From the NCBI GenBank assembly GCA_963765435.1, contig CAVXWK010000001.1, positions 699,294 through 763,293 on the forward strand: a stretch of DNA of 64,000 nucleotides, written 5' to 3'. The stretch is from an uncultured delta proteobacterium. GTDB lineage: Bacteria; Desulfobacterota; BSN033; UBA1163. Every line of letters starts with the position of its first letter. Within the stretch, counting starts at the first letter, position 1. Below are positions 5,552 through 43,921 of the stretch, piece by piece. Both the position numbers and the translations under genes were made by a program. The notes under the pieces were generated by a model. That model saw only the letters and a program-made list of their open reading frames with translations. It had not been told where the DNA came from and searched no databases.

Positions 5552-5564
5552 AGAGGAGAGGGAG

Positions 5565-6002: not shown

Positions 6003-6003
6003 A

Positions 6004-6483
6004 CTACCCTTTACCCTTTCCTATCTCCTTCAGGAGATTGGCCATTTCGATGGCTGACGTTGCCGCGTCAAAACCTTTGTTCCCGATTTTGGTCCCTGCC
6101 CTTTCAATCGCCTGTTCGATGGTATCGGTGATCAATACCCCGAAGGAGATGGGAACTTCACTTTCCAAGGTGAGACTGGCAATTCCTTTGGTGACTTCAT
6201 TAGCAATGTACCCAAAATGAGGGGTCGCTCCACGGATCACCGAACCCAAGCAGATGATGGCGTCGTATCCTCCGCTCTTGACCAACTTTTTGGCGGCAAG
6301 AGGAATCTCAAAGGCTCCTGGAACCCGAGCCACCGTGCAATCCCCCTCCTCTGCCCCGCTTCGCAGCAAGGCATCCATCGCCCCTTCAAGAAGTCGCTCG
6401 CCGATGAAGTCATTGAATCGGCTTAACACAATCCCGAATTTGAGTCCCTTTGCCGTCAGTTTTCCCTCGAAGGTCTTCACCAT
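6004..6483 (-). CDS. ribH: 6,7-dimethyl-8-ribityllumazine synthase
   Basis: [14 protein letters not shown] motifs. Confidence 0.9.
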
Positions 6484-23908: not shown

Positions 23909-24373
23909 GTGGAGATTAAGAAGATATGCGTGTTAGGTGCGGGATTAATGGGTAACGGTATTGCTCAGGTTTGTGCTCAGGCGGGCTATGAAGTCAGCCT
24001 ACGGGATATCGAAAAGATGTTCCTCGATAACGGGATGAATACGATCAAGAAAAATCTGAGCCGCGAGGTTGCAAAAGGAAAGCGAACCCAAGAAGACGCA
24101 GATGCGATTCTGGGCAGAATAAAACCAACGCTCGATCTCAAGGAAGCCGCAAAAGATGCAGACATCATTATGGAAGTCGTGATTGAAGTCATGGATATCA
24201 AGAAAAAAGTCTATCAGGAACTGAAAGGAATTGTAAAACCTGATGGCCTTATTTTTAGCAATACATCCAGCTTGAGCATCACGGCGATGGCTGCAGCAAC
24301 GGACAGACCAGATAGATTCTATTGCAAAGAGTACAAAAGACGGGCTCTTGATCTCCGGGACAAAATGCTATAA
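23909..24373 (+). pseudogene. 3-hydroxyacyl-CoA (3-hydroxybutyryl-CoA) dehydrogenase, 3'-truncated
   Basis: ICVLGAGLMGNGIAQV NAD-binding N-terminal domain; sequence departs from family after SNTSSLSIT and stops; C-terminal domain absent. Confidence 0.6.
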
Positions 24374-25127
24374 CACGAATGCACCAAAGTCTAAATATAC
24401 CGTCCTTTATGGGACCGAGGATCCAACCGCCGATGATGCAGAAAATCCAATGTCTCAAAGCCTCATTCCTTTAAAAGATCCGACGATCACTGTAGAACGG
24501 GTTTTTATCCCAACCGTTCCAAAGGTTCATATTGGTAAAGAGACTTTCAAGGAAACACTTGTTCCCAATAAAAGAATACTCTGCGATGTGGGCAAGGGGA
24601 AATTCGGCCTGTTTGAAGGGCTTGCTGTCGAAAGGATAGGTATTGCCATATCCGCCGTCTGCCAGTGCTGGAGCTCTCTGATGCACGCTACAATCTATTC
24701 GAATTTGAGAAAACAGTTTGGCCAAGAGGTAAGCAGATTCCAGGGTGTAGGCTTCTTGCTGGCTGAATATTATGCAAAGGTTTCGACTATAACATTTGCT
24801 ACCCTTGCCTTCGCCCGGGGTTATGATGAAGCCGTTAAAAAGCACAAGGGCCATCTGCCTGATATACTCACTCAACAATATGTAATGGCTGCCTCGCAGA
24901 TGAAATATCAAGCAACACATCTTTCTGAACGATGCTGCTATGAGATGTGTAATATTATGGGCGGGAACGGCCTTAATGATAATACCTTAATGGATGACCT
25001 GATGGGTTTATCGCGAATCCAGGAGATAATAGGCGGATTCAGAGAGATTCAGCTTTCATATCATGATGGGCGCCATAAAAAAGATGTGGAGATTGATATA
25101 AACTATCCTTTGCTTATCCTATTCTAA
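24348..25127 (+). pseudogene. acyl-CoA dehydrogenase C-terminal fragment (N-terminal domain missing, degenerate)
   Basis: RIGIAISAV...FGQEVSRFQGVGFLLAEYYAKV ... GGNGLNDNTLMD resembles ACAD middle/C-terminal domains only. Confidence 0.5.
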
Positions 25128-28031: not shown

Positions 28032-28196
28032 AACTAACAGGGTCAGGTCTCAACAATCAACAAGGCTTTTTCACAAGTTAAGACCAGGCCAATTTCCAGA
28101 CCCCAAAGCCTTCACTGACAGAAAATAATTTTCTATTTTCGAACCGGCAGAAGAAGCGATTCTGAAAAGGCGACTTTTTCAACAGTCCCTTTACAT
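28032..28196. repeat. attC-like cassette-boundary repeat, family 1, copy 1
   Basis: about 150-bp imperfect repeat shared with 28785-28965 and 29575-29718; ends near GTTAAAA. Confidence 0.55.
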
Positions 28197-28212
28197 GTTA
28201 AAATAGATCTCC

Positions 28213-28386
28213 ATGAGTCTTACTGTCTTCAGAGAAAAAGGGTATAGATTTTATTTTCTTTCAAATGAAGAGAATAGAATCCATATCCACGTCACGTGCG
28301 AGGACGGAGAAGCTAAATTTAACATTGTTGAGGAGCATAGAGATGAAATCATTAAGGCGTCGCAAAAGCATTTCGGTAAGCGTTGA
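28213..28386 (+). CDS. DUF4160-family small protein
   Basis: MSLTVFREKGYRFYFLSNEENRIHIHVTCEDGEAKF matches DUF4160 pattern. Confidence 0.7.
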   Translation: MSLTVFREKGYRFYFLSNEENRIHIHVTCEDGEAKFNIVEEHRDEIIKASQKHFGKR

Positions 28387-28654
28387 AAATATAACCCCTC
28401 TTGGCATCTGGCTTTTTGTAAAAGAAACGGAATACTTTTTGAGCTATAAAGATTATCCTTATTTTATGGATCAAAGGTTGCGTTCCATACAAAATGTTCA
28501 GTTGCTTCACGGTTATCATTTATATTGGCCAGAATTGGATATTGATTTAGAAATTGATAACCTCGTAAATCCTCAAAAATACCCTCTGAAATCAAGCGCT
28601 ACAAAAAAGCGTCCGGCAACTCATTCAATGGGACGGCGAATAGCCTCCCGTTGA
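28343..28654 (+). CDS. DUF2442-family small protein (partner of DUF4160)
   Basis: MKSLRRRKSISVSVENITPLGIWLFVKETEYFLSY...LYWPELDIDLEID; overlaps upstream gene by 44 nt. Confidence 0.7.
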   Translation: MKSLRRRKSISVSVENITPLGIWLFVKETEYFLSYKDYPYFMDQRLRSIQNVQLLHGYHLYWPELDIDLEIDNLVNPQKYPLKSSATKKRPATHSMGRRIASR

Positions 28655-28784
28655 TTCTGTCGTTATACAATGGTTTGAAGGTCTTGGCAAACGGTGGTCT
28701 TCGCTACCATGAGCTGGCCGATGTCCAGCGCTGGGCGGAGTTTGTTAGGGTGAGGGGTCAGCCCTTGACGCAGGACAAATGGAA

Positions 28785-28965
28785 GCAAACAGGGTCAGGC
28801 CTCAAAAATCAACAAAGCTTCTTCAAAAGTTGAAACCAGGTCTTGGTACCAGACCCAAACATTTTCAACGACAGAGAATCATTTCCTATTTTTGATCCGG
28901 CAGAAGAAGCACTTCTTTAAAAAGCACCAATTTCTACAAGCTTGTTGCAAGGAAAATAGGTTGTT
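28785..28965. repeat. attC-like cassette-boundary repeat, family 1, copy 2
   Basis: shared core ...CATTTCCTATTTTTGATCCGGCAGAAGAAGCAC... Confidence 0.55.
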
Positions 28966-28982
28966 TCCAAAATGCACACAAT

Positions 28983-29282
28983 GTGCTACTATATAAGCGG
29001 ATGAAGTATATAAATTGGAATACGGAAAAAAGCCTGAGACTCAAGGAACTGAGAGGAATTTGTTTTGAGGATGTAGTGTACCATATTGAAAAAGGCGACG
29101 TTCTCGATGATTATGAGCATCCGAATCAAAAGCGATATTCAGGACAGCGGATAATGGTGATCGGCATAGACAACTATGCATACCTTGTCCCCTACGTTGA
29201 GGACATAGAAGAAATATTTCTGAAGACTATTATCCCGAGCGGGAAGGCTGCTGAAATTTATTTTGGGGGAAAAGCGAAATGA
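28983..29282 (+). CDS. BrnT-like (DUF497) type II toxin
   Basis: INWNTEKSLRLKELRGICFEDVV...DDYEH...QRIMVIGI pattern; followed by BrnA-like gene with 4-nt overlap. Confidence 0.6.
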   Translation: MLLYKRMKYINWNTEKSLRLKELRGICFEDVVYHIEKGDVLDDYEHPNQKRYSGQRIMVIGIDNYAYLVPYVEDIEEIFLKTIIPSGKAAEIYFGGKAK

Positions 29283-29557
29283 AAAACAGATTGGCGGAAG
29301 AAGAACAGGCAATATTGGACAGTTTTGAAAGAGGGGAATGGGTCCCAGTAAAGGCTCTTGCAAAACGGAAAAGAGAGCTAATCCGATACGCGAGAAACAC
29401 TTTAAAGAAAGATAAGAGATTGAACATCCGGATTTCCGAAAGAGACTTGAATGAACTGCAAAAAAAGGCAGTGAGCGAGGGATTGCCCTATCAGACATTT
29501 GTTTCCAGTATCATTCATAAATATGTTAACGGCAAACTAGTAGAGGCCAAGCGCTGA
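29279..29557 (+). CDS. BrnA-like ribbon-helix-helix antitoxin
   Basis: LNIRISERDLNELQKKAVSEGLPYQTFVSSIIHKYVNGKL typical BrnA/CopG antitoxin C-terminus. Confidence 0.7.
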   Translation: MKNRLAEEEQAILDSFERGEWVPVKALAKRKRELIRYARNTLKKDKRLNIRISERDLNELQKKAVSEGLPYQTFVSSIIHKYVNGKLVEAKR

Positions 29558-29574
29558 TTAAGAAGATCAAGTCC

Positions 29575-29718
29575 CGAAGATCAAGGTTCTTCAAAAGTTG
29601 AGACCAAGTTTCGTGACCAGACCCGGGGACTTCCAATGACAGAGAATCATTTCCTATTTTTGATCCGGCAGAAGAAGCACCTTTTAAAAAAGTGACCTTT
29701 TCTACAAGCTCGTTGGAT
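29575..29718. repeat. attC-like cassette-boundary repeat, family 1, copy 3 (ends in GTTGGAT core)
   Basis: GTTGGAT at 29712-29718 fits GTTRRRY 6 bp before the SDR start codon. Confidence 0.55.
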
Positions 29719-29723
29719 GGCCC

Positions 29724-31058: not shown

Positions 31059-32942
31059 ATGATGATGTTAGAAACGATAGAATGGTTTGCTTCAATTGTC
31101 GGTGGTTTTATTGCTCTGATACTTTTTCTTCGCGGCTTTTGTTTGATCAGGGCCTATCAAGTCGGCATCCTGACTAAAAACATGTTCGGCAAAAAAATGC
31201 CCGAAGGACAAATCATCGCGCGTCATGGGCAAGTAGGGATTCAGGCGAAGACGTTGATGCCGGGGCTCTACTGGAGGCTGCCTATCATCTGGTCATTTAG
31301 AAAAGTTCCGGTCGTGACGATAGATATCGGCAGTATCGGTATTGTCGAATCGATTGACGGAGAAGCACTTCCTAAAGGGAGAGTGTTAGCCGACGAAGCC
31401 GAGTGTAATCAATTTCAAGATGCAGAGATGTTCTTAGCCAACCATGGGAAGAAGGGACCGCAAGTTGGAATTCTGCGTCCGGGTACCTACCGGATCAACA
31501 CGATACTGTTCAATATTGCCAAAGCCCCTGCAGTAAAAATAGCTGAGAATACCATTGGTGTCGCCGTTGCTAAAGATGGCATTCCCCTACCGACAGGCTA
31601 TATCATCGCTCCGAAGGCTAAAAATGATGACGGTACCGAAGCAGACCACAAATCTTATCAAAATGGCCAGCTCTTTATCGACAGCAAAGGATACCGGGGA
31701 CCACAGTTGGATACCCTGCAGCCGGGGATATATTACATCAATCCGAACTTATTTGATATTAAAATTGAAGAGGTAGCCGAGGTCCTTCCGGGATATGTCA
31801 CAGTGATCAGGTCGAACGTGGGACTAGAGCTTGAGAGGGCACCCGAAGGTCCCGATCGATCTACCGGGGAAGGAAAACTCTGTGGTCCGATCCATGAAGA
31901 TGTTGAGAAAATACTGATAACCGACAAATATACTCGCGGCATTTGGAGAGAGCCGATAGCACCAGGAAAATATAATCTGAATGCGATTGCTTTCACAGCC
32001 TATCAAGTACCTACTTCCGCCGTGACCATCGATTGGGCATCCGAGGGAAGAATCGGGACGGAGGTAAAGGGAATTAAACCAACCGAGGCTAAGGCTGCCG
32101 GGGTCCTGTACAGTTTCGATCCCTTGAAGGTGACTTCTAAAGATGGCTTTCAACTGGAAGTCAATGTCCGAATGGTGATTCGAATTCAACCGGGCAATGC
32201 GGCCTACATCATCGCGAGATTCGGGTCCGTGGCCAATCTGATTGATCAAATCGTACATCCGTTGATTGATTCATCTTTCAGGAATAAAGCCGGCGAGAAG
32301 AAAGCGATTGACTTTTTCCAGAGCCGGACGGACTTACAGACCGAAGCGCTGTTACACGCCAAAGAAAGATTTTCCGAGTACAACGTAGAGGCTCAAAACT
32401 TACTCATTGCCTATATCGATATCCCTAAGGATTTGCTGGACACTCAAACCAAGAAGGAGATTGCCAATCAGCAGCAAGCCCAGTATGACCAGGAGGCACT
32501 CGCTCAGGAAAAACGCATTGCGGTCATGGAGAAATCGTCCCGGGCGGATAAGCAGAAAGATGTTATTGATGCAAAATTATCTATCGATATCAATAATGAC
32601 AGGGCTGAGGCCAGAGTTAAGGAAGCCGACGGCATCAGGCGCTCTGTGATTCTCCAGGCTCAAGGGACTAAAGAATCCACGATACTGGTGGCTGACGGCA
32701 ATTCTTACAAAAGCAAGATTGAGGGCGACGGTGTCGCCGCTGCCTACAATGTCCAGAAAGAGGCCATTGGTCAGCAGAATGTAGCGATCATCAAACTCAT
32801 TCAGGAGATAGCGGCCGGTAAAATTCAGATCGTGCCACAGATTCTGGTTGGGGGTGGGGATGCTTCAGCGGGCGGCAACCTGTTCAATGCATGGTTAGCT
32901 CAAATGCTTTCACAAAAAGTACCGAAACAGGAGGGAAAATAG
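31059..32942 (+). CDS. flotillin-like SPFH/band-7 membrane protein (YqiK/FloT-like)
   Basis: N-terminal TM helix, SPFH-like core, coiled-coil Q/E/A-rich region and flotillin-type C-terminus (KIQIVPQILVGGGDAS...NLFNAWLAQM). Confidence 0.6.
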   Translation: MMMLETIEWFASIVGGFIALILFLRGFCLIRAYQVGILTKNMFGKKMPEGQIIARHGQVGIQAKTLMPGLYWRLPIIWSFRKVPVVTIDIGSIGIVESIDGEALPKGRVLADEAECNQFQDAEMFLANHGKKGPQVGILRPGTYRINTILFNIAKAPAVKIAENTIGVAVAKDGIPLPTGYIIAPKAKNDDGTEADHKSYQNGQLFIDSKGYRGPQLDTLQPGIYYINPNLFDIKIEEVAEVLPGYVTVIRSNVGLELERAPEGPDRSTGEGKLCGPIHEDVEKILITDKYTRGIWREPIAPGKYNLNAIAFTAYQVPTSAVTIDWASEGRIGTEVKGIKPTEAKAAGVLYSFDPLKVTSKDGFQLEVNVRMVIRIQPGNAAYIIARFGSVANLIDQIVHPLIDSSFRNKAGEKKAIDFFQSRTDLQTEALLHAKERFSEYNVEAQNLLIAYIDIPKDLLDTQTKKEIANQQQAQYDQEALAQEKRIAVMEKSSRADKQKDVIDAKLSIDINNDRAEARVKEADGIRRSVILQAQGTKESTILVADGNSYKSKIEGDGVAAAYNVQKEAIGQQNVAIIKLIQEIAAGKIQIVPQILVGGGDASAGGNLFNAWLAQMLSQKVPKQEGK

Positions 32943-32948
32943 ATAAAA

Positions 32949-33275
32949 ATGAAAAAGTGTCCCTTCTGCGCTGAAGTTATTCAAGACGCCGCGATAAAGT
33001 GTAAACACTGCGGTGAGTTTCTGGATGCTTCCACCCCCCGGCGCTTTGCAGAAAAAAAGATGCAATGGTATTTCCGAAAATCCTTTATTATCATTGCAGT
33101 CCTCTCAGTGGGGCCTCTGGCCTTGCCCCTGATTTGGTGGCGGCCACAAACGACGCGGGCATGGAAGATCGGACTCACGATAGGAATCCTTGTTCTCAGT
33201 TGGATATTGTTCCAAACGACGATGGAATCCCTTCGCACAATCAAGGAGTATTACAAGCTAATCCAAGGACTATGA
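32949..33275 (+). CDS. zinc-ribbon (CPFC...CKHC) membrane protein, hypothetical
   Basis: N-terminal C4 zinc ribbon then two predicted TM helices; 7 nt after the flotillin stop. Confidence 0.5.
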   Translation: MKKCPFCAEVIQDAAIKCKHCGEFLDASTPRRFAEKKMQWYFRKSFIIIAVLSVGPLALPLIWWRPQTTRAWKIGLTIGILVLSWILFQTTMESLRTIKEYYKLIQGL

Positions 33276-33405
33276 AATGATCTACCGGTAGAACAAGTCA
33301 GTAAACACCGACCGGGCTTACGTCGCGGCTTTATGTAAGTGTGCATGGTCTTGTAATTTATTACAAATTGGTAGTTCTTCGGGTATGACGCCCGGCGGGT
33401 TACCT

Positions 33406-33469
33406 CCGCGTTGAGGCTGTAGAAAAAGCCAATCTCGACCGAATCCGGTGAGTTGGATGAAAACGCGCC
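33406..33469. repeat. repeat family 2, copy a (CGCGTTGAGGCTGTAGAAAAA...GGTGAGTTGGATGAAAACGCG)
   Basis: about 65 bp, 85-90% identical to 34292-34358; CGCGTT...AACGCG termini. Confidence 0.55.
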
Positions 33470-33583
33470 GTCTCAGGATGCTTTATATATGAGCATCTCA
33501 TACCGGGAGGGGTCAAGATCCCCCAAAAACCACCCCCTCATTGTAACGGTGAGCTTTCTCTAAAGGCTCTTATCATTTTGCTC

Positions 33584-33616
33584 TTGACAATAGTAAACAA
33601 ATTGTTTACTATTGTC
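33584..33616. promoter_or_regulatory. sigma70-like promoter inside a 15-bp-arm perfect palindrome (putative HigA operator)
   Basis: TTGACA-17nt-TACTAT; GACAATAGTAAACAA|TTGTTTACTATTGTC ends 2 bp before higB ATG. Confidence 0.5.
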
Positions 33617-33618
33617 CA

Positions 33619-33900
33619 ATGATCAAGTCGTTCCGTTGTCGTGAAACCCAAAAAATATTTCATCGACAATTTTCCAGAAAGTTTCCACAGGACATCCAGC
33701 AACGTGCTTTTATGAAACTTAATGCGATTGATGCGGCAACTCGGCTTGAAGATTTAGGTCTACCGTCACCAAACCGACTTCAGGCTTTGAAAGGGGAACG
33801 TAAAGGGCAATGGAGCATTCGTATTAACGATCAGTGGCGTATTTGTTTTGAATGGCGTAATGGTAATGCAGAAATGGTGGAAATCGTCGATTATCACTGA
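33619..33900 (+). CDS. higB: HigB-like (RelE/ParE superfamily) killer toxin
   Basis: MIKSFRCRETQKIFHRQFSRKFP...ALKGERKGQWSIRINDQWRICFEW typical HigB. Confidence 0.75.
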   Translation: MIKSFRCRETQKIFHRQFSRKFPQDIQQRAFMKLNAIDAATRLEDLGLPSPNRLQALKGERKGQWSIRINDQWRICFEWRNGNAEMVEIVDYH

Positions 33901-33910
33901 GGAGGTTGAC

Positions 33911-34213
33911 ATGAACAAGAAGCGTATTTCTCCAGTACACCCTGGGTTATATCTAAAAGAGTTGCTTGACGAGTTGAAGTTGTCGCAATACCGACTCGCC
34001 CGGGAGTTGGGTGTGCCCGCTATGCGTATCAATCACGTTGTGAATGGTAAACGTCCGGTAACAGCGGAGCTTGCTTTGCGCCTGGGGCGCTATTTCGGGC
34101 AAAACCCGCGTTATTGGATAAACCTACAAAGTCGGTATGATATGGATATTGCCGAAGATGCGCTGTCCGAACAGGTAGCGCGTGAAGTACGTCCCATGAT
34201 GGCAGCCGTTTGA
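33911..34213 (+). CDS. higA: HigA antitoxin (XRE-family HTH)
   Basis: ISPVHPGLYLKELLDELKLSQYRLARELGVPAMRINHVVNGKRPVTAELALRLGRYFG; RBS GGAGG before ATG 33911. Confidence 0.75.
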   Translation: MNKKRISPVHPGLYLKELLDELKLSQYRLARELGVPAMRINHVVNGKRPVTAELALRLGRYFGQNPRYWINLQSRYDMDIAEDALSEQVAREVRPMMAAV

Positions 34214-34291
34214 TCTCAATAACAATGTTCATTGCTTCATTCGAATGGCATGGCCTAACATGGCGCGCCGAACATTCCGGCTCTGGGTGAC

Positions 34292-34358
34292 CCGCGTCGT
34301 TGAGGCTGTAGAAAAATTCAATCTGGTCCGAATCCGGTGAGTTGGATGAAACCGCGCC
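34292..34358. repeat. repeat family 2, copy b
   Basis: see 33406-33469. Confidence 0.55.
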
Positions 34359-34443
34359 CTCAATTCGATGCTTCTGAGTTAAAAACAGGTTGACACCTTC
34401 CTTTCACGTACATATAATCCTTTCATCTATAGAACAAACTTAA

Positions 34444-35729
34444 GGCAACCTCTAAAAATGTGAATTTTGAAAGTTAGAAATTCGTTGAATCGAATTCAGA
34501 GAAAATGTTAAGCACAAAACCCAATCGTTCATCTTACGAAACCTATTTGAACCGATCTTTTGATCGCTTGTTAACGATCCTACCGGGTCATTTTGCCCGG
34601 TGGATATACTCGGGGGACTCATGTCCCCACCACCACGCAGTAGCGATCCAAATTGTAAGCCAGATTCCTCAAACCAACCTTGGCCTTGACCCGGACCAGG
34701 CCAATGGCCCGTACAATCAGCCTTCCCGCTCGCTTCGCCTGCACCCCAAAGACATGTTCCACACGACTCCGAATTCGGGAACGCGTTCGGTTCCCCTGAG
34801 CCTCTCGGTCCGTCAGTGTCTTGTGCCTGCATCCTTTACGCTGAAGATGCTCCCGATACTTCCGTTTCTTCAACTCCTTGAGCTTTTCCTCCGAACGGTA
34901 CGCCGAGTCTGTCCACACATCTCGACTGCTGTTATCCTCATCCAGAAGATCCTCAAAGACCTGACTGTCATGAACCGACGCGGGCGTCACTTCATAACTG
35001 CGAATCAGTTTATGTTTCACATCCACATCGATATGATTCTTATAACCGTAGTAGTTCTGGCCATTCTTCTTGGTCCAGCGGGCATCCGTATCCTTCTGCC
35101 GCTTCTTCTGTTCGCTCCAGTCTTCTGGAATCTCTCCTTGCTTGATTCGCTTATTCTCTTCCCGACTGTTCCGCTGTTTCGGCACAGCAACGATACTGGC
35201 GTCCACAATCTGCCCTTTCCGGGCCGAGAAGCCTTGTTCGCAAAGATACGTTTCAAATTGCTCAAAGGCTTTCTCAATCACCCCGGCTTCGGTCAATTGC
35301 TCCCGAAACAACCAGATGGTCTTAGCGTCCGGAACGTCATCTCCCAAAGACAAATCCAAGAATCGCATAAACGAGAGACGATCCCGAATCTGAAACTCTG
35401 CTTGCTCGTCCGACAGATTGTACAGCGATTGAAGAATCAGCACCTTGAACATCAACACAACCTCAAAGGGTTTTCGACCCGCACTGGATTTGCGCTCTTT
35501 GTCTCGCACCGCTTCCAGCAGAGGTCGAAATCGGCCCCAGTCCACCATTGTCTGAATCCTGGGGAGCGGGTCACCGCCCTTGTCCAACTGTTTAAAACGT
35601 ATCTGCCAATCCAACAAACCGGTCTGCATCATCTGTTTTCCTCCTGCCTCGTTTTTGGTGACCGTAACATACTGGTTGTTAGATTGGTAGAGTGTTGATA
35701 GTAAATTTAGCTAATTTTTAGAGGAACCC
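34444..35729 (-). mobile_element. IS5-family insertion sequence (IS5 group), 16-bp imperfect IRs GGCAACCTCTAAAAAT, 4-bp TSD TTAA
   Basis: IRs and flanking TTAA at 34440-43 and 35730-33 seen directly. Confidence 0.8.
34619..35632 (-). CDS. IS5-family DDE transposase
   Basis: 337 aa, KKNGQNYYGYKNHIDVD...TPASVHDSQ motif. Confidence 0.85.
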   Translation of the reverse strand: MMQTGLLDWQIRFKQLDKGGDPLPRIQTMVDWGRFRPLLEAVRDKERKSSAGRKPFEVVLMFKVLILQSLYNLSDEQAEFQIRDRLSFMRFLDLSLGDDVPDAKTIWLFREQLTEAGVIEKAFEQFETYLCEQGFSARKGQIVDASIVAVPKQRNSREENKRIKQGEIPEDWSEQKKRQKDTDARWTKKNGQNYYGYKNHIDVDVKHKLIRSYEVTPASVHDSQVFEDLLDEDNSSRDVWTDSAYRSEEKLKELKKRKYREHLQRKGCRHKTLTDREAQGNRTRSRIRSRVEHVFGVQAKRAGRLIVRAIGLVRVKAKVGLRNLAYNLDRYCVVVGT

Positions 35730-35762
35730 TTAAGAAGGATTTTAGCTGTAAAAGAAAGACGA

Positions 35763-36017
35763 ATGATGGAAGGCAACCATGAAAGAATTCTTAACCCCTG
35801 GATATTCATCTGGACTAAACCACGAGCAACAATTCAACAGATAGTCGACACGAATCCAGGGAAATTGGTTGTACTCTTGGCCGCCATCGACGGTTTCTCG
35901 GGAGTACTGAACAATGCGAGCCTGAGGAATCTTGGAGACAAATATGACTGGCCCATCATCTTTGCCATCGCCGCAGTTGCTGGGGCAATTGGGGGAATAA
36001 TAGGTTTGTATGACCCC
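35763..36017 (+). pseudogene. Yip1-family membrane protein, 5' part (gene interrupted by IS3 element)
   Basis: ILNPWIFIWTKPRATIQQIVDTNP...; reading frame resumes at 37282 after removal of IS plus one CCC copy. Confidence 0.6.
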
Positions 36018-36047
36018 TGATGTCAATAGTGGACACGAAGCGCTCTC

Positions 36048-36908
36048 TCATGCTGCAAGTTGCCTTGTATAGAACTGCCGCTCATAGACAACCGGAGAAA
36101 GGTACCCCAGCCGTGCTTGCCGTCTTTGCCGATTGTAGAATACCTCGATGTATTCCGTGATCTCCCGGATGGCCTGCTCTCTCGTCTTGAAGCGACAGTG
36201 ATGGACAAGCTCATTCTTGAGCGTACCCCAGAAGCTCTCCATGGGAGCATTGTCGTAGCAGTCGCCCTTCCTGCTCATAGATGCTCTCATCTTGAACTGA
36301 TCCACCAGCTTCCGGTATTCATGGGCGCAGTACTGACTCCCACGATCCGAATGGTGAATCAGGCCTGCTCCGGGCCGTTTGGCTGCCACGGCTCTGAACA
36401 GAGACTGGCTCACCAGGTTCTTGGTGAGACGATTGCCCATGGCATATCCAACGATTTCTCCCGTGCAGAGGTCCTTATGCCCTGCCAGATAGAGCCAGCC
36501 TTCTTCTGTGGGGATATAGGTAATGTCGCTGACCCAAACCTCGTTCGGCGTCGTTGCCTTAAACTGCTGATTGAGCAGATTCTGTGCCACAGGCAGAGCA
36601 TGCTTCGAATCCGTGGTGGCCTTGAACTTCCTCTTCTGCTTACACCGTAACCCAAGCTTCTTCCTGATCCGTCTGATCCGGCAGATCCCGACCTTTACAC
36701 CCTGTTCTTTGAGCTCATGCTGTAATCTCTCTGGACCGCACGTCTCACGGGTCCTCTTGTGGGCGGCTTTTATCTCTACTTCCAGCCTTCCCTCTTCCAG
36801 GACACGTTTGGAAGGCTTGCGCCTGAACCATTGGTAATAACCGCTCTTGGATACACGCAGAATACGGCACATCATCCCAATACAATACTTGAATCGCATT
36901 GCTTTCAT
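36048..36908 (-). CDS. IS3-family transposase OrfB (DDE integrase core)
   Basis: SDITYI...HSDRGSQY...DNAPMESFWGTLK motifs. Confidence 0.85.
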   Translation of the reverse strand: MKAMRFKYCIGMMCRILRVSKSGYYQWFRRKPSKRVLEEGRLEVEIKAAHKRTRETCGPERLQHELKEQGVKVGICRIRRIRKKLGLRCKQKRKFKATTDSKHALPVAQNLLNQQFKATTPNEVWVSDITYIPTEEGWLYLAGHKDLCTGEIVGYAMGNRLTKNLVSQSLFRAVAAKRPGAGLIHHSDRGSQYCAHEYRKLVDQFKMRASMSRKGDCYDNAPMESFWGTLKNELVHHCRFKTREQAIREITEYIEVFYNRQRRQARLGYLSPVVYERQFYTRQLAA

Positions 36909-37222
36909 GATCGCGTACCTGGCAGCGACTCCTTCGCAAAGTACACGGCCGCTTTTTTTAATATGTCTCGCTCCATCCTGGCTTCTGCCAGTTCACGCTT
37001 CACCCGGGCAAGCTCCATCTCTATTTCCGTAAGCGGCCTCTGGTGCTTTCCAACCTCCTTAAGCTTGCCTTCTCTGCTCGCCTTAACCCAGTACCGTATT
37101 GTCGAGGCCGCAACCGATAACCGACGCCCCACCTCCGGTATCTTTAATCCGCCTTCTGTTACGAGCTTCACTGCTTCCTCTCGAAGTTCCTTCGTGTAGA
37201 TTGCTCTCGGAATCCTTTCCAT
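36905..37222 (-). CDS. IS3-family transposase OrfA (HTH)
   Basis: 105 aa helix-turn-helix, overlaps orfB start; frameshift site likely. Confidence 0.8.
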   Translation of the reverse strand: MERIPRAIYTKELREEAVKLVTEGGLKIPEVGRRLSVAASTIRYWVKASREGKLKEVGKHQRPLTEIEMELARVKRELAEARMERDILKKAAVYFAKESLPGTRS

Positions 37223-37281
37223 TCTGACACCTCCGTCTTTAGTATTTTACCTCAACTTTGGTGTCCACAAAAGTCATCTTA

Positions 37282-37680
37282 CCCCAGTACTTAGCTGGTG
37301 CGCTGATTCGTTGGACAGGAAAGTGGATTGGTGGACAAGCCCCTTCCCAAAACATTCGGGCTGCGATTGCGTGGTCTAGTGTCCCAACAATATGGGCATT
37401 AATACTCTGGATACCTCAACTTGTACTATTTGGTCAGGAACTGTTCACAACTGAGACACCAAGAATACATGCGAGCCCGTCTCTGGGGTTTATATCGCTA
37501 GGTTTTGTTGCGATTCAATTAATAATTGCGATATGGGCAATCGTTGTATTTCTGAAGTGCTTAGGGCAAGTTCAAGGATTTTCAGCCTGGAGAGCGCTTG
37601 GGAATACAACTCTGGGGGCTCTGGTTATCGTGGTCCCGATTGCAATAATTGCAATTATTGTCGTGTGTATAGCTCGATAA
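37282..37680 (+). pseudogene. Yip1-family membrane protein, 3' part
   Basis: continues ...QYLAGALIRWTGKW... in frame with 35763-36017 when IS3 is excised. Confidence 0.6.
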
Positions 37681-37821
37681 TTTTTCGTTATATACGACTC
37701 TTCGGCTAGCGACAGCTTCCAGTTGACAGTTGATCCGCTTCGGTCCACGGCATAAACGGAACCTGGCCGATAGGCATCTATCTATCACAATATTAGCACT
37801 AACAAACTATGGAGGTCTGAG

Positions 37822-38454
37822 ATGACACAAGCTGCTACGGAAGCCCTGAGGATACTTCGCGACGGAAGTTTGTTCCAATGGTACCTTATTACTCTATTCG
37901 CCCTAACGGTGTACGTCTATGCGGCGGAGGTTGAACGGAAAAATTGGAGCCTCGTATTCGCCGGATTAGCTTTTTGGGGAATGGACTGGTTCAACGAGAT
38001 CTGGAACGGCCTGGTATTCCACTTCACCCAGTACGCCCCTGTATGGGGCGCTCCGGGCAAAACAGCCTTCCTAATCCTGATCGGGCTGAACATCGAAATC
38101 TGCTTCATGTTCGCGATTGCAGGAATCGCCTTTTCAAAGATGCTTCCTGCCGACAAGAAACTCAAAATTCTGGGACTTCCGAACCGTCTGGCCTTCGCTA
38201 TCGTTAACTCGATCTTTTGCGTCCTCGTGGAGATGGTGCTGCATTCAGTTGGTGCATTGACCTGGGATTACTCATGGTGGGGTGTGAGAGCACCGTGGCT
38301 GATATTTTTGATCGGCTATTTGCCATTTTTTCTGGTCGCGTTCTGGGTGTTTGATATGGACAGTTTCCGGAAGAAGGCTACCACGGTGGGTGTTATCTAT
38401 GCTTTCGACATTATCTGTCTTATCGTATTTCTGGGAATATTGAAGTGGATCTGA
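37822..38454 (+). CDS. hypothetical polytopic membrane protein
   Basis: 210 aa, 5-6 predicted TM helices, no recognised family. Confidence 0.5.
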   Translation: MTQAATEALRILRDGSLFQWYLITLFALTVYVYAAEVERKNWSLVFAGLAFWGMDWFNEIWNGLVFHFTQYAPVWGAPGKTAFLILIGLNIEICFMFAIAGIAFSKMLPADKKLKILGLPNRLAFAIVNSIFCVLVEMVLHSVGALTWDYSWWGVRAPWLIFLIGYLPFFLVAFWVFDMDSFRKKATTVGVIYAFDIICLIVFLGILKWI

Positions 38455-38567
38455 TGAATTAGGGAACGATCTGCGTTCCTCCCCTTCCCTCTAATGCGTC
38501 GTCAGCGCACTCAAGACAGGTGATAATCGCCTTCTCTCCGAGGGCGATCACCATTTTTTTCATCAGA

Positions 38568-39497
38568 TCATCGTTTCCCCAAGATCATGGCGAGCAAAGC
38601 CATTCTTACAAAGACACCGTTTTTCACCTGCCTGAAATAGGCTGCTCCTGGATAGGCATCCACTTCCGGCCTGATCTCGTCCACTCTTGGAAGCGGGTGA
38701 AGAATGGTGATCTTCTTTTTAAGCTCTTTCAGGAATTTTTCATCGATGACGTAATAGCCCTTCACCCGCTCGTATTCGGAAAGATTCTCAAAACGCTCCT
38801 TTTGAATCCGCGTCATGTAGACGAGAGCGCTTTCAGAGGCTGCTTTCCGGAAATCCTCTGTCTCTTCGATCTCAATCCCTTTTTGTTTGAGACTGGAGAC
38901 GATTTCCTCCGGCATCCGAAGGCTGTTGGGTGAAACAAAATAGAGCCGCGCTTGAAAGAGGGACAAAAGCTCGACCAGTGCGTGGACCGTCCGGCCGTTC
39001 TTTAAATCGCCCACCATGGAGACTGCCAAATTCTTGAGCGAGCCCAATTCTTTATGAATCGTATAAATATCAAGGAGGGCTTGAGTGGGGTGCTGCCCTG
39101 CCCCATCGCCTGCATTGATGACAGGAATCGGAGCTGCCTCGGCTGCTTCTTTGGCCGATCCGATGCGCGGATGGCGGATGACGATGGCATCTGCATACTG
39201 GGAGACCGTCCTGGCTGTATCCGCAACGGTCTCACCTTTCGCCGCCGACGAGCTCTCTGCCGATGCCATGCTGATCACCCCTCCGCCCAAACGCTGCATG
39301 GCCGTCTCAAAGGAGAGTCGGGTCCGGGTGCTTGGCTCGAAGAAAAGCGTCGCCAAAATCTTCCCTTTCAAAAGAGTTAAAGAGTCCTTTTTCTTGAGTT
39401 CCTTCTCAAAATCGGACGCAATTCTAATGATCCCTTCGACATCCTTCTTTGAAAATTGATTTCCATGAAGGATATCCTTTCCTTTAAGGCTACCCAT
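38568..39497 (-). CDS. pyrB: aspartate carbamoyltransferase catalytic subunit
   Basis: STRTRLSFE, HPLPR motifs. Confidence 0.9.
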   Translation of the reverse strand: MGSLKGKDILHGNQFSKKDVEGIIRIASDFEKELKKKDSLTLLKGKILATLFFEPSTRTRLSFETAMQRLGGGVISMASAESSSAAKGETVADTARTVSQYADAIVIRHPRIGSAKEAAEAAPIPVINAGDGAGQHPTQALLDIYTIHKELGSLKNLAVSMVGDLKNGRTVHALVELLSLFQARLYFVSPNSLRMPEEIVSSLKQKGIEIEETEDFRKAASESALVYMTRIQKERFENLSEYERVKGYYVIDEKFLKELKKKITILHPLPRVDEIRPEVDAYPGAAYFRQVKNGVFVRMALLAMILGKR

Positions 39498-39603
39498 CTT
39501 GTCCCCCTTCCGCTTTCTTGATTACATTCAAAATTTTTATCACCCTCTCCCTCACCCTCCCCCGTCGAGGGGGAGGGATTGGGTGTGTCCTGCCCATCGA
39601 ATT

Positions 39604-40911
39604 TTAGGAATTTTCGCCTGTGATGATTCCATCTCTTGCCACAATTCGTCCTGCGACAATTGTCAGTATTGCTTTTCCTTGAAGCTCCCAGCCATTAAAA
39701 GGACAATTTCTACCCTTGGAATAAAAGCGATTGACGTCCACCCTCCATTTCCAATCCAGATCGATCAAGGTCAGGTCCGCTTTAGCTCCTGGTCTGAGGC
39801 TGCCAACTCCCAGTACCTCGAGCCCAAAAATCTCGGCTGGGATGATCGTCATCTTTGCAATTGCTTGATTCAATGTCAAGATACCCGGATGCACCAGATA
39901 AGTTAAGACCAGGCCCAGCGTTGTCTCCAGGCCGATCACGCCGAAGGGAGCTTGATCCCAGGATCTGTTCTTCTCTTCGGGCGAATGAGGGGCATGGTCG
40001 CTCGCAATAATGTCAATAGTGCCGTTGGCAAGCCCTGCCCTCAAAGCCTCCACATCTCCTTCCGATCTCAATGGTGGATTTACTTTTGCGTTCGGTCCGA
40101 TTTCCTGGGCCATTTTCTCCGTCAGCAGAAGATGCTGCGGGGTCGCCTCTGCTGTCACATTGACTCCCCGTTTTTTCGCATCGGCAATGAGCTCTACCGA
40201 CCTGGCAAGGCTCACATGTGAGATGTGAAGCCGTGCTCCCGTTTTCTCGGCCAATTCGATATCTCGCTCGATAAACCCGGCTTCGGAGGTATAAGGATTC
40301 GCGCCCGGTGAAGCATACGGCATTTGGGGAGAGGAGGAGAGGATTCTTTGCCTGTAGAGTGAAGATTCTTCACAGTGTGGACTGACCAGGATTCCGCATT
40401 CCTTGCCTTTGACAAGTGCGCTTCGCATGAGCCTCCGGCTTGGAACGGGATTCCCATCGTCAGAAATCGCTCTGGCCCCGGCTTCTTTCAGTTTGGCAAT
40501 ATCCGTCAGCCTGTAGCCCATCGTTCCCTTAGTAATGGCTGACTTCGAGTAGAAATTAATGACGCTGTTCTTCTCTGCAATATTCAGTAAACGACAAAGC
40601 CGCGCAGGCGTATCTATCGGAGGAGCGGTGTTGGGCTCTGCTATGACGCTGGTGAATCCGCCGGCTGCGGCGGCCGATGAGCCGGTGTGAAGGTCTTCTT
40701 TATACTCCTGACCGGGCTCTCTGAAGTGGACGTGAGCGTCCACTAAGCCCGGTACAAGCAGCTTTCCGCTTGCGTCAATTATCGTAGCATCCGGAGCTAT
40801 AATATTCTCAGCAATCTCACTTATTTTCCCGTCATCAATCAAGACGTTGGATACCCGAGGGCCCGCTAACTCCGCAGCGATTAAGCTGGCTTTCTTAATA
40901 AGGAGTTTCAT
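39604..40911 (-). CDS. pyrC: dihydroorotase
   Basis: VDAHVHFREPG metal-binding motif, 435 aa. Confidence 0.85.
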   Translation of the reverse strand: MKLLIKKASLIAAELAGPRVSNVLIDDGKISEIAENIIAPDATIIDASGKLLVPGLVDAHVHFREPGQEYKEDLHTGSSAAAAGGFTSVIAEPNTAPPIDTPARLCRLLNIAEKNSVINFYSKSAITKGTMGYRLTDIAKLKEAGARAISDDGNPVPSRRLMRSALVKGKECGILVSPHCEESSLYRQRILSSSPQMPYASPGANPYTSEAGFIERDIELAEKTGARLHISHVSLARSVELIADAKKRGVNVTAEATPQHLLLTEKMAQEIGPNAKVNPPLRSEGDVEALRAGLANGTIDIIASDHAPHSPEEKNRSWDQAPFGVIGLETTLGLVLTYLVHPGILTLNQAIAKMTIIPAEIFGLEVLGVGSLRPGAKADLTLIDLDWKWRVDVNRFYSKGRNCPFNGWELQGKAILTIVAGRIVARDGIITGENS

Positions 40912-41016
40912 AGGTTAACTCAAGGGTTCCAGGGTTCGAGGGTTCTAGGGTACGAGTGGAATTTCATGAATTTATGCCTTCGCTTGGCCACTTGATTCCT
41001 TGACCCCTTGAACCCT

Positions 41017-41949
41017 CTACATAATCAGCGCCAAAAGGGCTTTTTGGGCATGGAGCCTGTTCTCTGCCTGGTCGAAGATAACGCTATTTTGCGAATCGGC
41101 CACTTCGTCCGTCACCTCTTCTCCCCGGTGGGCCGGCAAACAGTGCATGAAAAGATAATCCTCTCTTGCTTCTTTGACTAGCTTGGCGTTGACCTGGTAG
41201 GGTTTTAAAATTTTCACCCTTTTTTCGCGCTCCTTTTCCTTACCCATACTGGTCCATACATCCGTATAAACAATATCGGCTCCTCTCACAGCCTCCTTCG
41301 GATCATTCGTTACCTTCACCTTGCAACCGCTTCTTTTCCCCTCTTCCCTCGCCTCGGAGACCACCTGTGAATTAGGCTCATATCCTTTCGGACATCCAAG
41401 GGCGATATCCATTCCTACCTTGGAGCAGCCGTAGAGCAGGGAGTGGGCTACATTGTTGGCGTCGCCGACATAGGCAAGCCTCAATCCTGAAAACCGTCTC
41501 TTCTTCTCGTAAATGGTGAAAAGGTCAGATAAGCCTTGGCAGGGATGCGTGAAGTCTGAAAGCCCGTTGATCACTGGCACTTTGGAATATCTTACCAGAT
41601 CGATGATGGTCTGATGAGCAAAGACCCTTGCCATAATTCCGTTCACATAACGGGAGAGAACTTGAGCTGTATCAGCAACGGTCTCCCCGCGGCCTAATTG
41701 CAGATCGCTGGCATTCAGATAGAGCGCATAACCTCCGAGTTGCCACATTCCCACTTCAAAGGAAACCCTTGTTCGCGTGGACGGCTTCTCAAAGATCATC
41801 GCCAGCGTTTTCCCCTTTAAAAGAGGATGTTCCTCTCCGCGAAGCAATTGAGATTTCAATAGTTCCGCCGTCTTTAGGATCTGCTCAATTTCCTCCCTGG
41901 TTAAATGGAAAAGGCTATCTAACGATCTTCCTTTTAAGTTTACTGCCAT
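41017..41949 (-). CDS. argF: ornithine carbamoyltransferase
   Basis: STRTRVSFE, HCLPAHRGEE motifs. Confidence 0.9.
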   Translation of the reverse strand: MAVNLKGRSLDSLFHLTREEIEQILKTAELLKSQLLRGEEHPLLKGKTLAMIFEKPSTRTRVSFEVGMWQLGGYALYLNASDLQLGRGETVADTAQVLSRYVNGIMARVFAHQTIIDLVRYSKVPVINGLSDFTHPCQGLSDLFTIYEKKRRFSGLRLAYVGDANNVAHSLLYGCSKVGMDIALGCPKGYEPNSQVVSEAREEGKRSGCKVKVTNDPKEAVRGADIVYTDVWTSMGKEKEREKRVKILKPYQVNAKLVKEAREDYLFMHCLPAHRGEEVTDEVADSQNSVIFDQAENRLHAQKALLALIM

Positions 41950-42060
41950 GCTTCCCTATTCGACCTCCTCCACTATTAATCAAACATTTCCATTCATAAT
42001 ACCTTAACGCCTTTGTCCTGTCCATAATGAATCCACCCTCACCCCGGCCCTCTCCATCAA

Positions 42061-42287
42061 GAGACTGTGTCGTAATCGCCGCCCTGGCGGAAGAGACAGT
42101 CGGGTTTCAATGCTTTCGAATGCGGTCTTTTAGGAATGACTAATCGGTGCTTATGGAAAATGGAGTCATCTCATGGATCTTCAACGTCTGAATTTCACGC
42201 GTAAAAGGTTGCCGCTCTAAAGCTTTTCCACCCGACCGCCTTTTCCGCCCTATTTGGGACGGGCTTTTATAATTGTGACACAGTCTC
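42061..42287. mobile_element. 227-bp MITE-like element (copy 2, inverted relative to copy 1)
   Basis: reverse complement of 5325-5551 with only a few mismatches. Confidence 0.6.
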
Positions 42288-42375
42288 CAAGGGAGAGGGA
42301 GAACCGGATCGAGTCAATTCTATTTTTGGGATTAAAATTTGGGATTAAAATTGGCCTTGACTTCTACTCATTGAT

Positions 42376-42880: not shown

Positions 42881-43921
42881 TTAGGCCTTTACATGGAGAA
42901 TAAGTTTCTTGCCGCATTCACAGCAGTAGTTTGAATAGATGCCATTTTCCGTCCGGCAATGTTTGCAGATATTCACTTGATTCAGCGAAATAGTATTGAT
43001 CAAGTGGAAGACCATATAGGTAACTAATGCAGAAAAGGTCCACACGGCAACGAATATCCAGGCCAGCTCAGAAGTGATAAAGTTTTGGATCAAAAAAGAC
43101 ACAAAGTAAGAAAAGATTGTTCCCGTCAAGAACAGGGTCAGGAATATTTTAGTAAATCGTCTTCCCTTGAACCACATGTACGGAATCGTAAAGCTCGCCA
43201 GGGAGATGAGAAAGGACGTGATGCACCAGGTTTGAAATTGGTTTCTAAAACTTGTGAGCAAGGTCCCCAATGTTGTTAACATTTCCTCAAAGTTGACTTT
43301 TAGGTCGACAAGGGACGCAGATTCTCTCTCAAAGTAACGGAAAATCGGTAACAGCCTCTCCAGGGAGAAGAACCATAGGCAAACAGTCCCTATGATTAGG
43401 GCCATTCCGAGGGTTATGTATGAGATGTTCTCGAGGTATTTACTCAACAGATAAACTTCAAGGCCCCGATTGTAGACTTCGAATTTTTTCGTCTCCCTTA
43501 TGAAAACCAAAGATGAGATAATAGATGCCGAGACCCCGAACCCGAGAAAAATTAATCCGATAGATAGAAACATCCAAGGAAGATCCTCCCTGAAAAATAC
43601 GCCAGCCGCGTCGCCATGATAAAAAACGTACGGCCAGACCGTCTTCAAAATAACGGCGATGCATAAAATAAGCGCAATATAAGCAAGTGGTTTTGCAACC
43701 TTATTCCCTTTTTCTTCAGCCGACCGGCCCACCTGTTCATGGAATTCCCTTGCAAATGCGTTTTTCTCGTAAACAAGTCTTGTAAAAATTCTATTGATCC
43801 ATTTTTGTCGAATGAGACGCCATGCAAAGAATCCCAGGACCGATATCAAGATGAAGGGGAGTGTAACCTCGGCCAGCAGGAGGACAGCAATGATCAGAGA
43901 CATTACAAAATGATATACCAT
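42881..43921 (-). CDS. hypothetical polytopic membrane protein with C-terminal C4 zinc ribbon
   Basis: 346 aa, multiple TM helices, CKHC...CCECG at C-terminus. Confidence 0.5.
   Translation of the reverse strand: MVYHFVMSLIIAVLLLAEVTLPFILISVLGFFAWRLIRQKWINRIFTRLVYEKNAFAREFHEQVGRSAEEKGNKVAKPLAYIALILCIAVILKTVWPYVFYHGDAAGVFFREDLPWMFLSIGLIFLGFGVSASIISSLVFIRETKKFEVYNRGLEVYLLSKYLENISYITLGMALIIGTVCLWFFSLERLLPIFRYFERESASLVDLKVNFEEMLTTLGTLLTSFRNQFQTWCITSFLISLASFTIPYMWFKGRRFTKIFLTLFLTGTIFSYFVSFLIQNFITSELAWIFVAVWTFSALVTYMVFHLINTISLNQVNICKHCRTENGIYSNYCCECGKKLILHVKA

What the first reader, a model, noticed from the sequence alone, without database searches (positions are those of the whole stretch)
35763..37680. 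IS3-family element inserted in-frame into a Yip1-family membrane-protein gene
The 5' part (…GIIGLYDP) and 3' part (QYLAGALIRW…) of a Yip1-like gene flank a 1264-bp IS3 element. Removing the IS plus one copy of the 3-bp duplication CCC restores a continuous ORF of about 215 aa. This indicates a recent insertion with the 3-bp target-site duplication typical of the IS3 family. An IS5 element with a TTAA duplication lies immediately upstream at 34444-35729, so this spot is an IS hotspot at the edge of the cassette array.
Basis: seen in the sequence. Interest (0 to 1): 0.5.

Follow-up and report, generated by a model that had tools for sequence, protein, structure and literature searches.

The report
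IS3 element splitting a Yip1 gene

Summary
The core observation holds. A complete IS3-family insertion sequence lies on the minus strand inside a Yip1-domain (PF04893) gene spanning 35763-37680. An IS5-family element sits 29 bp upstream of that gene's start.

The element is 36011-37286 (1276 bp), not 36018-37281 (1264 bp). It has the canonical TG...CA ends and in-register inverted repeats. Its 3-bp target duplication is GTA (36008-36010 and 37287-37289), not CCC. The CCCC runs belong to the element's own ends.

The revised excision gives 212 aa and aligns without a gap.
- The Pfam Yip1 score rises from 50.0 to 59.6 bits.
- Copies 90-92% identical in unrelated contexts, a stand-alone 1276-bp contig, more distant relatives and E. 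coli IS600 all start and end at exactly these bases.

The element looks intact, with orfA, orfB, an A AAA AAA G frameshift site and a D-D-35-E triad. TTAA flanks every identical IS5 copy. One other assembly joins the same IS5 to different genes. The "cassette array" could not be confirmed. This is routine biology.

The parts
35763..36010 (+). 5' fragment of the Yip1-family gene (codons 1-82 plus the first two bases of Tyr83). Its last 3 bases are the left copy of the target duplication.
   Evidence: ORF list. The alignment with homologues runs gapless up to ...GIIGL-Y.
36008..36010 (.). Left copy of the 3-bp target-site duplication, GTA.
   Evidence: The boundary scan finds only one model with TG..CA ends, the best inverted-repeat match and an open restored frame.
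36011..37286 (-). Complete IS3-family insertion sequence of 1276 bp (IS600-like). On the + strand it reads TGACCCCTGATGTC...GACATCTTACCCCA.
   Evidence: blastn of 90-92% identical copies (L091, L092, L093) aligns exactly to 36011-37286, and L093 is a stand-alone 1276-bp contig. End alignments with relatives and IS600 agree.
36011..36036 (-). Right inverted repeat (IRR, next to the orfB end). It carries an outward-facing TTGACA at 36021-36026.
   Evidence: 16 of 26 bases match IRL in register. TTGACA was flagged on the minus strand. L002 has an identical 29-nt IRR in an unrelated flank.
36048..36908 (-). orfB, 286 aa, the catalytic part of the transposase: D128, D188 and E224 (35 residues between D188 and E224), with K231.
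   Evidence: Pfam rve, rve_2, rve_3 and HTH_21. NF033516 scores 339 bits. Motif positions.
36952..36959 (-). Slippery sequence A AAA AAA G in orfA, the predicted site of programmed -1 frameshifting that gives a 391-aa OrfAB.
   Evidence: The fusion read-through has no stops and is followed by a predicted stem-loop. The fusion carries HTH_Tnp_1 + HTH_21 + rve colinearly.
36905..37222 (-). orfA, 105 aa, the helix-turn-helix DNA-binding part.
   Evidence: Pfam HTH_Tnp_1 at 46.9 bits. It matches NF033516 profile positions 1-85.
37261..37286 (-). Left inverted repeat (IRL, upstream of orfA): TGGGGTAAGATGACTTTTGTGGACAC in transposase orientation.
37287..37289 (.). Right copy of the target-site duplication, GTA.
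37287..37680 (+). 3' fragment of the Yip1-family gene (from the last base of Tyr83 to the stop codon). It has no native start or promoter.
   Evidence: The public 139-aa annotation of this fragment (P0051) starts inside the IS.
34444..35729 (-). IS5-family element of 1286 bp, with its transposase at 34619-35632 (337 aa). TTAA lies on each side (34440-34443 and 35730-35733). The element sits 29 bp upstream of the Yip1 ATG.
   Evidence: Terminal inverted repeats. NF033581 scores 291 bits, and Pfam finds DUF772 + DDE_Tnp_1. Identical copies occur in at least 4 contexts.
34390..34418 (+). Perfect sigma-70 consensus (TTGACA, 17 nt, TATAAT) pointing at the Yip1 gene. The IS5 insertion now separates the two.
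   Evidence: 12 of 12 consensus matches. Function is inferred only.

Best explanation
A 1276-bp insertion sequence of the IS3 family (IS600-like lineage, unnamed) transposed into codon 83 of a 212-codon Yip1-domain membrane-protein gene, within the first strongly hydrophobic segment. The 3-bp target GTA was duplicated.

The gene is now a pseudogene. Its 5' fragment ends at a stop codon just inside the element. Its 3' fragment has no start of its own.

The element looks transposition-competent. It has intact orfA and orfB, an A7G -1 frameshift site that would give a 391-aa OrfAB, a D-D-35-E catalytic triad and TG...CA ends.

By analogy with IS911, IS2 and IS3, it would move by copy-out-paste-in through a circle. 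The abutted ends of that circle would form a junction promoter: TTGACA in IRR, 18 nt assuming a 3-bp spacer, then TAAGAT in IRL.

A second, unrelated IS5-family element lies between the gene and a consensus promoter upstream.

Shown: the anatomy, the boundaries, the duplication and the colinear restoration. Inferred: frameshifting, circle formation, activity and order of events.
For: **Boundaries**
- The only model with TG..CA ends, inverted repeats in register (18 of 30) and an open restored frame is 36011-37286 with GTA.
- Copies 92% identical in an unrelated locus (L091, L092; flanked by a CAA duplication) and a stand-alone 1276-bp contig (L093) align exactly to 36011-37286.
- Eight relatives at 63-74% OrfB identity, and E. 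coli IS600, lose similarity to each other exactly at these TG and CA bases. Duplications of 3-4 bp lie at those points in L002, L007, L008 and L013.

**Gene restoration**
- The 212-aa product is gapless against 119 of 119 homologues.

**Family**
- NF033516 scores 339 bits against a cut-off of 160.
- The frameshift fusion is open.
- The catalytic residues are D128, D188, E224 and K231.
- Family features are taken from PMC5771124 and PMC3219604.

**Same junction in a second assembly**
- A MAG contig from GCA_052143695.1 ends 125 bp inside the element and is 99.86% identical onward.
Against: - No empty-site allele was found. The best full-length homologue is only 75-76% identical, depending on the alignment, and an exact search for the empty-site 28-mer in the metagenome collection found nothing.
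- No identical second copy of this IS3 was found, so current activity is not demonstrated.
- The inverted repeats are imperfect: positions 3-8 do not match.
- The predicted junction-promoter spacer is 18 nt rather than the optimal 17.
Confidence: 0.93

Rival explanations
1. One reading: the element is 36018-37281 (1264 bp) with a CCC duplication, and this Yip1 lineage has a genuine 4-residue insertion (YDPQ) at that point.
For: CCC is present on both sides, and excision gives an open 216-aa frame that still passes the Pfam threshold at 50 bits.
Against: - With those ends the inverted repeats are out of register (10 of 30 matches), and the right end is TA rather than CA.
- TGACCCC and TACCCCA are conserved parts of related elements that sit in unrelated flanks.
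- 119 of 119 homologues lack the four residues.
Confidence: 0.03
2. The juxtaposition is an assembly artefact: a repeated IS was placed between two contig ends by the assembler.
For: - Short-read assemblies break at this IS. The MAG contig ends 125 bp inside it.
- The neighbouring IS5 is joined to different flanks in different assemblies.
Against: - The two flanks are the two halves of one gene, and they meet at a perfect 3-bp duplication. A random mis-join would not produce that.
- An independent assembly has the same right junction.
Confidence: 0.03
3. For the IS5 only: it is not a simple insertion upstream of the Yip1 gene. Its present pair of flanks arose by recombination between two IS5 copies, so the gene and the consensus promoter were not originally neighbours.
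For: - L086 (GCA_052916125.1) is 100% identical to the window over 4115 bp (31619-35733), covering the Band_7 and HigBA genes and the IS5. It then continues into dienelactone-hydrolase and SnoaL genes instead of the Yip1 gene.
- TTAA flanks every copy, so it does not identify the original pair of flanks.
Against: - L086 may itself be a chimeric short-read join across a 1.3-kb repeat.
- The window has TTAA on both sides, which also fits a simple insertion.
Confidence: 0.3

Closest known systems
IS600 (IS3 family; Shigella and E. coli)
   Same: - It has the same orfA/orfB layout.
- Its ends align in register: TGAGGTAGCCTGAG...GGACAC against TGGGGTAAGATGAC...GGACAC on the left, and ...GTGTCCGCTATTGCC..CCTCA against ...GTGTCCACTATTGACATCAGGGGTCA on the right.
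- It is the closest well-studied named relative found.
   Different: OrfB is only about 60% identical. By the usual ISfinder naming thresholds, as I recall them, this is a different and unnamed IS.
ISBvi4 (Burkholderia) and ISGlo1 (Trichlorobacter lovleyi), as named in RefSeq annotation
   Same: These are the highest-scoring named relatives in the plasmid collection: 67.8% and 63.3% OrfB identity over the full length.
   Different: They are well below same-element identity. Their ends were not examined here.
IS911 / IS2 / IS3 copy-out-paste-in pathway with a circle-junction promoter
   Same: - CA-3' ends.
- An AnG frameshift window.
- A D-D-35-E transposase.
- An outward -35 (TTGACA) in the right end and a -10-like TAAGAT in the left end (family features from PMC3219604 and PMC5771124).
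   Different: Nothing about circle formation or promoter activity was tested. The predicted spacer is 18 nt, assuming a 3-bp junction.
Integron gene cassettes carrying Yip1-family genes (L082, GCA_900175145.1)
   Same: A 70%-identical homologue (P0003) is a single-gene cassette between two clear attC hairpins. It lies downstream of an integron integrase (TIGR02249, 404 bits).
   Different: - In the window no integrase was found among the ORFs scanned.
- No attC-like site follows the Yip1 gene.
- Only one convincing attC-like hairpin (34253-34306) lies upstream.

Membership tests
IS3 family of insertion sequences | Two consecutive, partly overlapping reading frames (orfA, then orfB in the -1 phase) with an AnG slippery motif | tested here: met
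   orfA is at 36905-37222 and orfB at 36048-36908, both on the minus strand. A AAA AAA G lies at 36952-36959, and the -1 fusion is open for 391 aa. Frameshifting itself was not testable.
IS3 family of insertion sequences | DDE transposase of the retroviral-integrase type with D-(57-60)-D-35-E and K/R seven residues after E | tested here: met
   Pfam rve scores 82 bits. The residues are D128, D188, E224 and K231. NF033516 scores 339 bits against a cut-off of 160.
IS3 family of insertion sequences | Imperfect terminal inverted repeats ending 5'-TG...CA-3' | tested here: met
   This holds for 36011-37286 only. It is confirmed by homologous ends in L002-L013, L091, L093 and IS600.
IS3 family of insertion sequences | Short target duplication (3-5 bp) and a length of about 1.2-1.5 kb | tested here: met
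   The GTA duplication and the 1276-bp length. Relatives show duplications of 3-4 bp.
IS3 family of insertion sequences | Transposition through a circular intermediate with a junction promoter | not testable with these tools
   Only the sequence motifs are present: TTGACA in IRR and TAAGAT in IRL, with an 18-nt spacer if the junction is 3 bp.
Yip1 domain family (PF04893) | Match to the family profile above the curated threshold, over the whole domain | tested here: met
   The restored 212-aa protein scores 59.6 bits against a cut-off of 28.6, covering profile positions 3-169 of 173. The 3' half alone scores 32.9 bits and the 5' half alone gives no hit.
Yip1 domain family (PF04893) | Small multi-pass membrane protein | tested here: met
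   A hydropathy scan finds four strongly hydrophobic stretches (about residues 61-90, 107-135, 144-180 and 184-212). No dedicated topology predictor was available.
IS5 family (upstream element) | DDE_Tnp_1 transposase matching the IS5 family model, short terminal inverted repeats and a 4-bp target duplication | tested here: met
   NF033581 scores 291 bits against a cut-off of 140. The inverted repeats are GG(C/G)(A/T)(A/T)CCTCTAAAAAT. TTAA lies on both sides in every copy. Whether TTAA is a duplication or part of the element was not resolved, because no empty site was found.
Integron cassette array | Integron integrase next to the array | tested here: not met
   None of the 36 ORFs scanned against Pfam across the window has a tyrosine-recombinase domain. 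Not all ORFs were scanned.
Integron cassette array | attC recombination sites (R''-L''...L'-R' hairpins) after each cassette | tested here: inconclusive
   There is one good candidate at 34253-34306 (GCCTAAC...GTTGAGGC). Other gene boundaries carry repeats of a different kind at 28036-29720. My scan was crude, and no attC covariance model was available.

The most novel reading that the evidence does not exclude
The Yip1 gene is, or was, the last cassette of an integrase-less attC array and was driven by a consensus promoter at 34390-34418. The multi-copy, 100%-identical IS5 is actively reshuffling what lies downstream of that promoter among co-existing strains: the Yip1 gene here, and hydrolase and SnoaL genes in L086. 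On this reading the doubly hit Yip1 gene is a snapshot of IS-driven turnover at the end of a cassette array.
Probability: 0.2. Interest if true: 0.3.

Novelty: new member of a known kind. Interest (0 to 1): 0.12.

Why it matters
Mostly for annotation accuracy.
- The element's ends contain same-strand CCCC runs that mimic a target duplication. A sequence-only reading mis-sets the boundaries by 12 bases in total and yields a 'restored' protein with four spurious residues.
- The public annotation of the 3' fragment as a 139-aa 'YIP1 family protein' starts inside the IS, so it describes a pseudogene fragment.
- Biologically this is a routine gene inactivation by an IS in accessory DNA.
- The only mildly interesting side points are that this Yip1 subfamily occurs as an integron cassette elsewhere, and that the neighbouring IS5 is multi-copy and linked to alternative flanks.

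Tried and rejected
**Searches that found nothing**
- Exact-match searches for the IS3 end and for the predicted empty site in the genome and metagenome collections gave no hits.
- Exact-protein look-ups of OrfB, OrfA and the 85-aa 5' fragment are not on record.

**attC scans**
- The first scan found nothing relevant: none on the + strand and one - strand hit, inside an ORF, at 7410-7535.
- The second scan was unspecific, with many hits inside coding regions. I therefore do not claim an integron array.

**Models and calls set aside**
- I considered and rejected a 4-bp CCCC duplication because it puts the restored gene out of frame.
- I rejected the other boundary and duplication combinations within ±15 bp.
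- One search was a mistaken placeholder alignment and carries no information.
- Searches were malformed literature queries.
- ARAGORN's 100-nt 'tRNA-Ser' at 33498-33597 was not supported by Rfam.

Full report
**What is in the sequence**

The + strand carries an ORF from the ATG at 35763 that ends at a TGA at 36018-36020. A second ORF, in another frame, runs to a stop at 37678-37680.

Between them, on the minus strand, are two overlapping ORFs.
- orfA is at 36905-37222 (105 aa) and matches Pfam HTH_Tnp_1.
- orfB is at 36048-36908 (286 aa) and matches HTH_21, rve, rve_2 and rve_3.
- orfB scores 339 bits on NCBIfam NF033516 'IS3 family transposase', against a cut-off of 160. orfA matches the N-terminal 85 positions of the same model.

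**The two halves are one Yip1 gene**

The rejoined protein matches Pfam Yip1 (PF04893) colinearly over profile positions 3-169 of 173. The 3' half alone matches positions 74-169, and the 5' half alone gives no hit.

A search of the large protein collection found 459 relatives. Many are about 210 aa long, 60-75% identical and cover the full length. The only roughly 100% match is P0051, a 139-aa NCBI entry that is just the 3' fragment.

With all 119 listed homologues, none has these residues.

Only one model had TG...CA termini, the best inverted-repeat match (18 of 30, in register) and an open restored frame. That model is 36011-37286 (1276 bp) with the duplication GTA at 36008-36010 and 37287-37289.

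The repeat finder had already placed the conserved core of the inverted repeats (36019-36039 and 37258-37278) 8 bases from each of these ends.

Excising 36011-37289 gives a 212-aa protein reading ...GIIGLYLAGALIRW..., which is gapless against all homologues.

**Independent confirmation of the ends**

Relatives of OrfB were fetched from the species-representative genomes. In eight elements with 63-74% OrfB identity, similarity between elements begins at TG(A/G)GGTA... and stops at ...(G/C)(G/C)TCA, with unrelated flanks beyond.
- L002 has the 29-nt right end TGACCCCTGATGTCAATAGTGGACACGAA, identical to the window's, in a different flank. Its element is also 1276 bp.
- At these boundaries L002 (GTT) and L008 (GGA) have 3-bp duplications, and L007 (TAAC) and L013 (GTAG) have 4-bp duplications.

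The protein collection holds many OrfB relatives at about 90% identity. Several lie on stand-alone contigs of 1271-1278 bp, which is typical of collapsed repeats.
- One such contig (L093, 1276 bp) aligns end to end with window 36011-37286 at 90.3% with no gaps.
- Two 92%-identical copies in an unrelated locus (L091 and L092, next to an aminotransferase gene) align to exactly the same span and are flanked by a CAA duplication.
- The ends of E. coli IS600 (about 60% OrfB identity) also align in register, with the terminal TG and CA invariant.

Both ends carry a C4 run on the same strand, and that mimics a CCC direct repeat.

**State of the element and likely mechanism**

orfA contains TTA AAA AAA GCG. 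A -1 slip on A AAA AAA G joins it to the orfB frame without stops, giving a 391-aa OrfAB. A stable stem-loop is predicted just downstream. The fusion carries HTH_Tnp_1, HTH_21 and rve in order.

The catalytic residues are D128, D188 and E224, with 35 residues between the last two and K at E+7. This matches the family description in PMC5771124.

The right end holds an outward TTGACA. In a circle with a 3-bp junction it would lie 18 nt from TAAGAT in the left end. This resembles the junction promoter described for IS2 and IS911 (PMC3219604).

I infer, but have not shown, that the element is competent for copy-out-paste-in transposition.

The insertion falls in the first strongly hydrophobic segment of the protein, about residues 61-90. 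The 5' fragment gains two foreign codons and a stop. The 3' fragment has no native start. The first nine residues of the public 139-aa annotation, MSTKVILPQ, are encoded by the IS end and the duplication.

**How recent, and how widespread**

Evidence consistent with a recent event:
- the duplication is perfect;
- the IS reading frames are intact;
- the restored gene keeps the invariant family residues.

A contig of MAG GCA_052143695.1 is 99.86% identical to window 37162-42298 and ends 125 bp inside the element. The same insertion is therefore present in a second assembly.

No uninterrupted allele and no identical second copy of the IS3 were found.

**The IS5 element**

The element at 34444-35729 has 16-nt terminal inverted repeats. 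Its 337-aa transposase matches NF033581 at 291 bits, and TTAA lies on both sides. It sits 29 bp upstream of the Yip1 ATG and 25 bp downstream of a perfect TTGACA-17-TATAAT consensus at 34390-34418.

The identical transposase is on five other contigs. Each copy is 99.9-100% identical to the window across the element, and TTAA is present at every end that the contig reaches. At least four different flanks are represented.

One contig (L086) shares 4.1 kb with the window on the HigA side and then continues into hydrolase and SnoaL genes rather than the Yip1 gene. Either IS5 copies have recombined in one lineage, or one assembly is chimeric across the repeat. In both cases TTAA does not prove a simple insertion here.

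**Hotspot and cassette array**

Upstream (28-34.4 kb) are small modules: a DUF2442 protein, a CopG-like antitoxin pair, a short-chain dehydrogenase, an SPFH protein and HigBA. Repeated elements lie at the gene boundaries, and one attC-like hairpin is at 34253-34306.

None of the 36 ORFs scanned against Pfam across the window has a tyrosine-recombinase domain. My attC scans were not specific, so an integron-type array is not established.

A 70%-identical Yip1 homologue (P0003) is a single-gene cassette between clear attC sites, next to an integron integrase, in another genome. A cassette origin for this gene is therefore plausible.

Two insertions within 300 bp are as well explained by relaxed selection on a dispensable, already-broken gene as by targeting.

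**Verdict**

This is a correct catch of an ordinary event, with corrected coordinates (36011-37286, GTA duplication, 212-aa restored protein). The element is an unnamed member of the IS600-like branch of the IS3 family. Interest is low.

Noticed in passing
window 5315-5575 and 42037-42296: A 264-bp inverted repeat (94% identical) with its copies 36.5 kb apart, bracketing the whole region. The MAG contig L001 matches the window at 99.86% up to 42298 and diverges exactly where this repeat ends. The window then has low-GC DNA (0.44) and a 346-aa ORF (42881-43921, minus strand) with no Pfam hit. This may be a strain-specific insertion or rearrangement point.
   Followed up: partly
window 28036-28184, 28788-28952, 29582-29720; also 33397-33472 and 34285-34361: Two families of intergenic repeats sit at the boundaries of small accessory gene modules. 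The first is about 130-150 nt long and 73-83% identical. The second is a 77-nt pair, 87-91% identical. An attC-like hairpin (GCCTAAC...GTTGAGGC) lies at 34253-34306 after HigA. Whether these are integron recombination sites was not settled.
   Followed up: partly
L086 (GCA_052916125.1, JBLFKT010174781.1) against window 31619-35733: The two sequences are 100% identical over 4115 bp, from the Band_7 gene through HigBA and the IS5. Beyond the IS5 the flanks differ: dienelactone-hydrolase and SnoaL genes in L086 instead of the Yip1 gene. This reflects either IS5-mediated rearrangement or a chimeric assembly.
   Followed up: partly
L082 (GCA_900175145.1, FWWM01000747.1) 731-6420: A genuine integron. 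The integron integrase is split into 75-aa and 257-aa ORFs (TIGR02249, 404 bits). It is followed by same-strand cassettes with clear attC hairpins. One cassette is a 70%-identical Yip1 homologue, between attC sites at 4927-4984 and 5656-5728.
   Followed up: yes
window 34390-34418 (+): A 12-of-12 match to the sigma-70 consensus (TTGACA, 17 nt, TATAAT) just after the attC-like site and 25 nt before the IS5. It points towards the Yip1 gene.
   Followed up: no
window 37261-37680 / P0051: The NCBI entry 'MAG: YIP1 family protein', 139 aa, annotates the 3' gene fragment with a start codon inside the IS3 end. Its first nine residues are not Yip1 sequence.
   Followed up: yes
window 23909-25127: A 154-aa ORF with only the N-terminal NAD-binding domain of 3-hydroxyacyl-CoA dehydrogenase overlaps a 259-aa ORF that has only the C-terminal domain of an acyl-CoA dehydrogenase. 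These may be truncated genes, a frameshift or a fusion remnant.
   Followed up: no
window 33498-33597 (-): ARAGORN calls a 100-nt tRNA-Ser (anticodon aga) between the zinc-ribbon ORF and higB. Rfam's tRNA model does not find it at the gathering threshold, so it is probably a false positive.
   Followed up: partly
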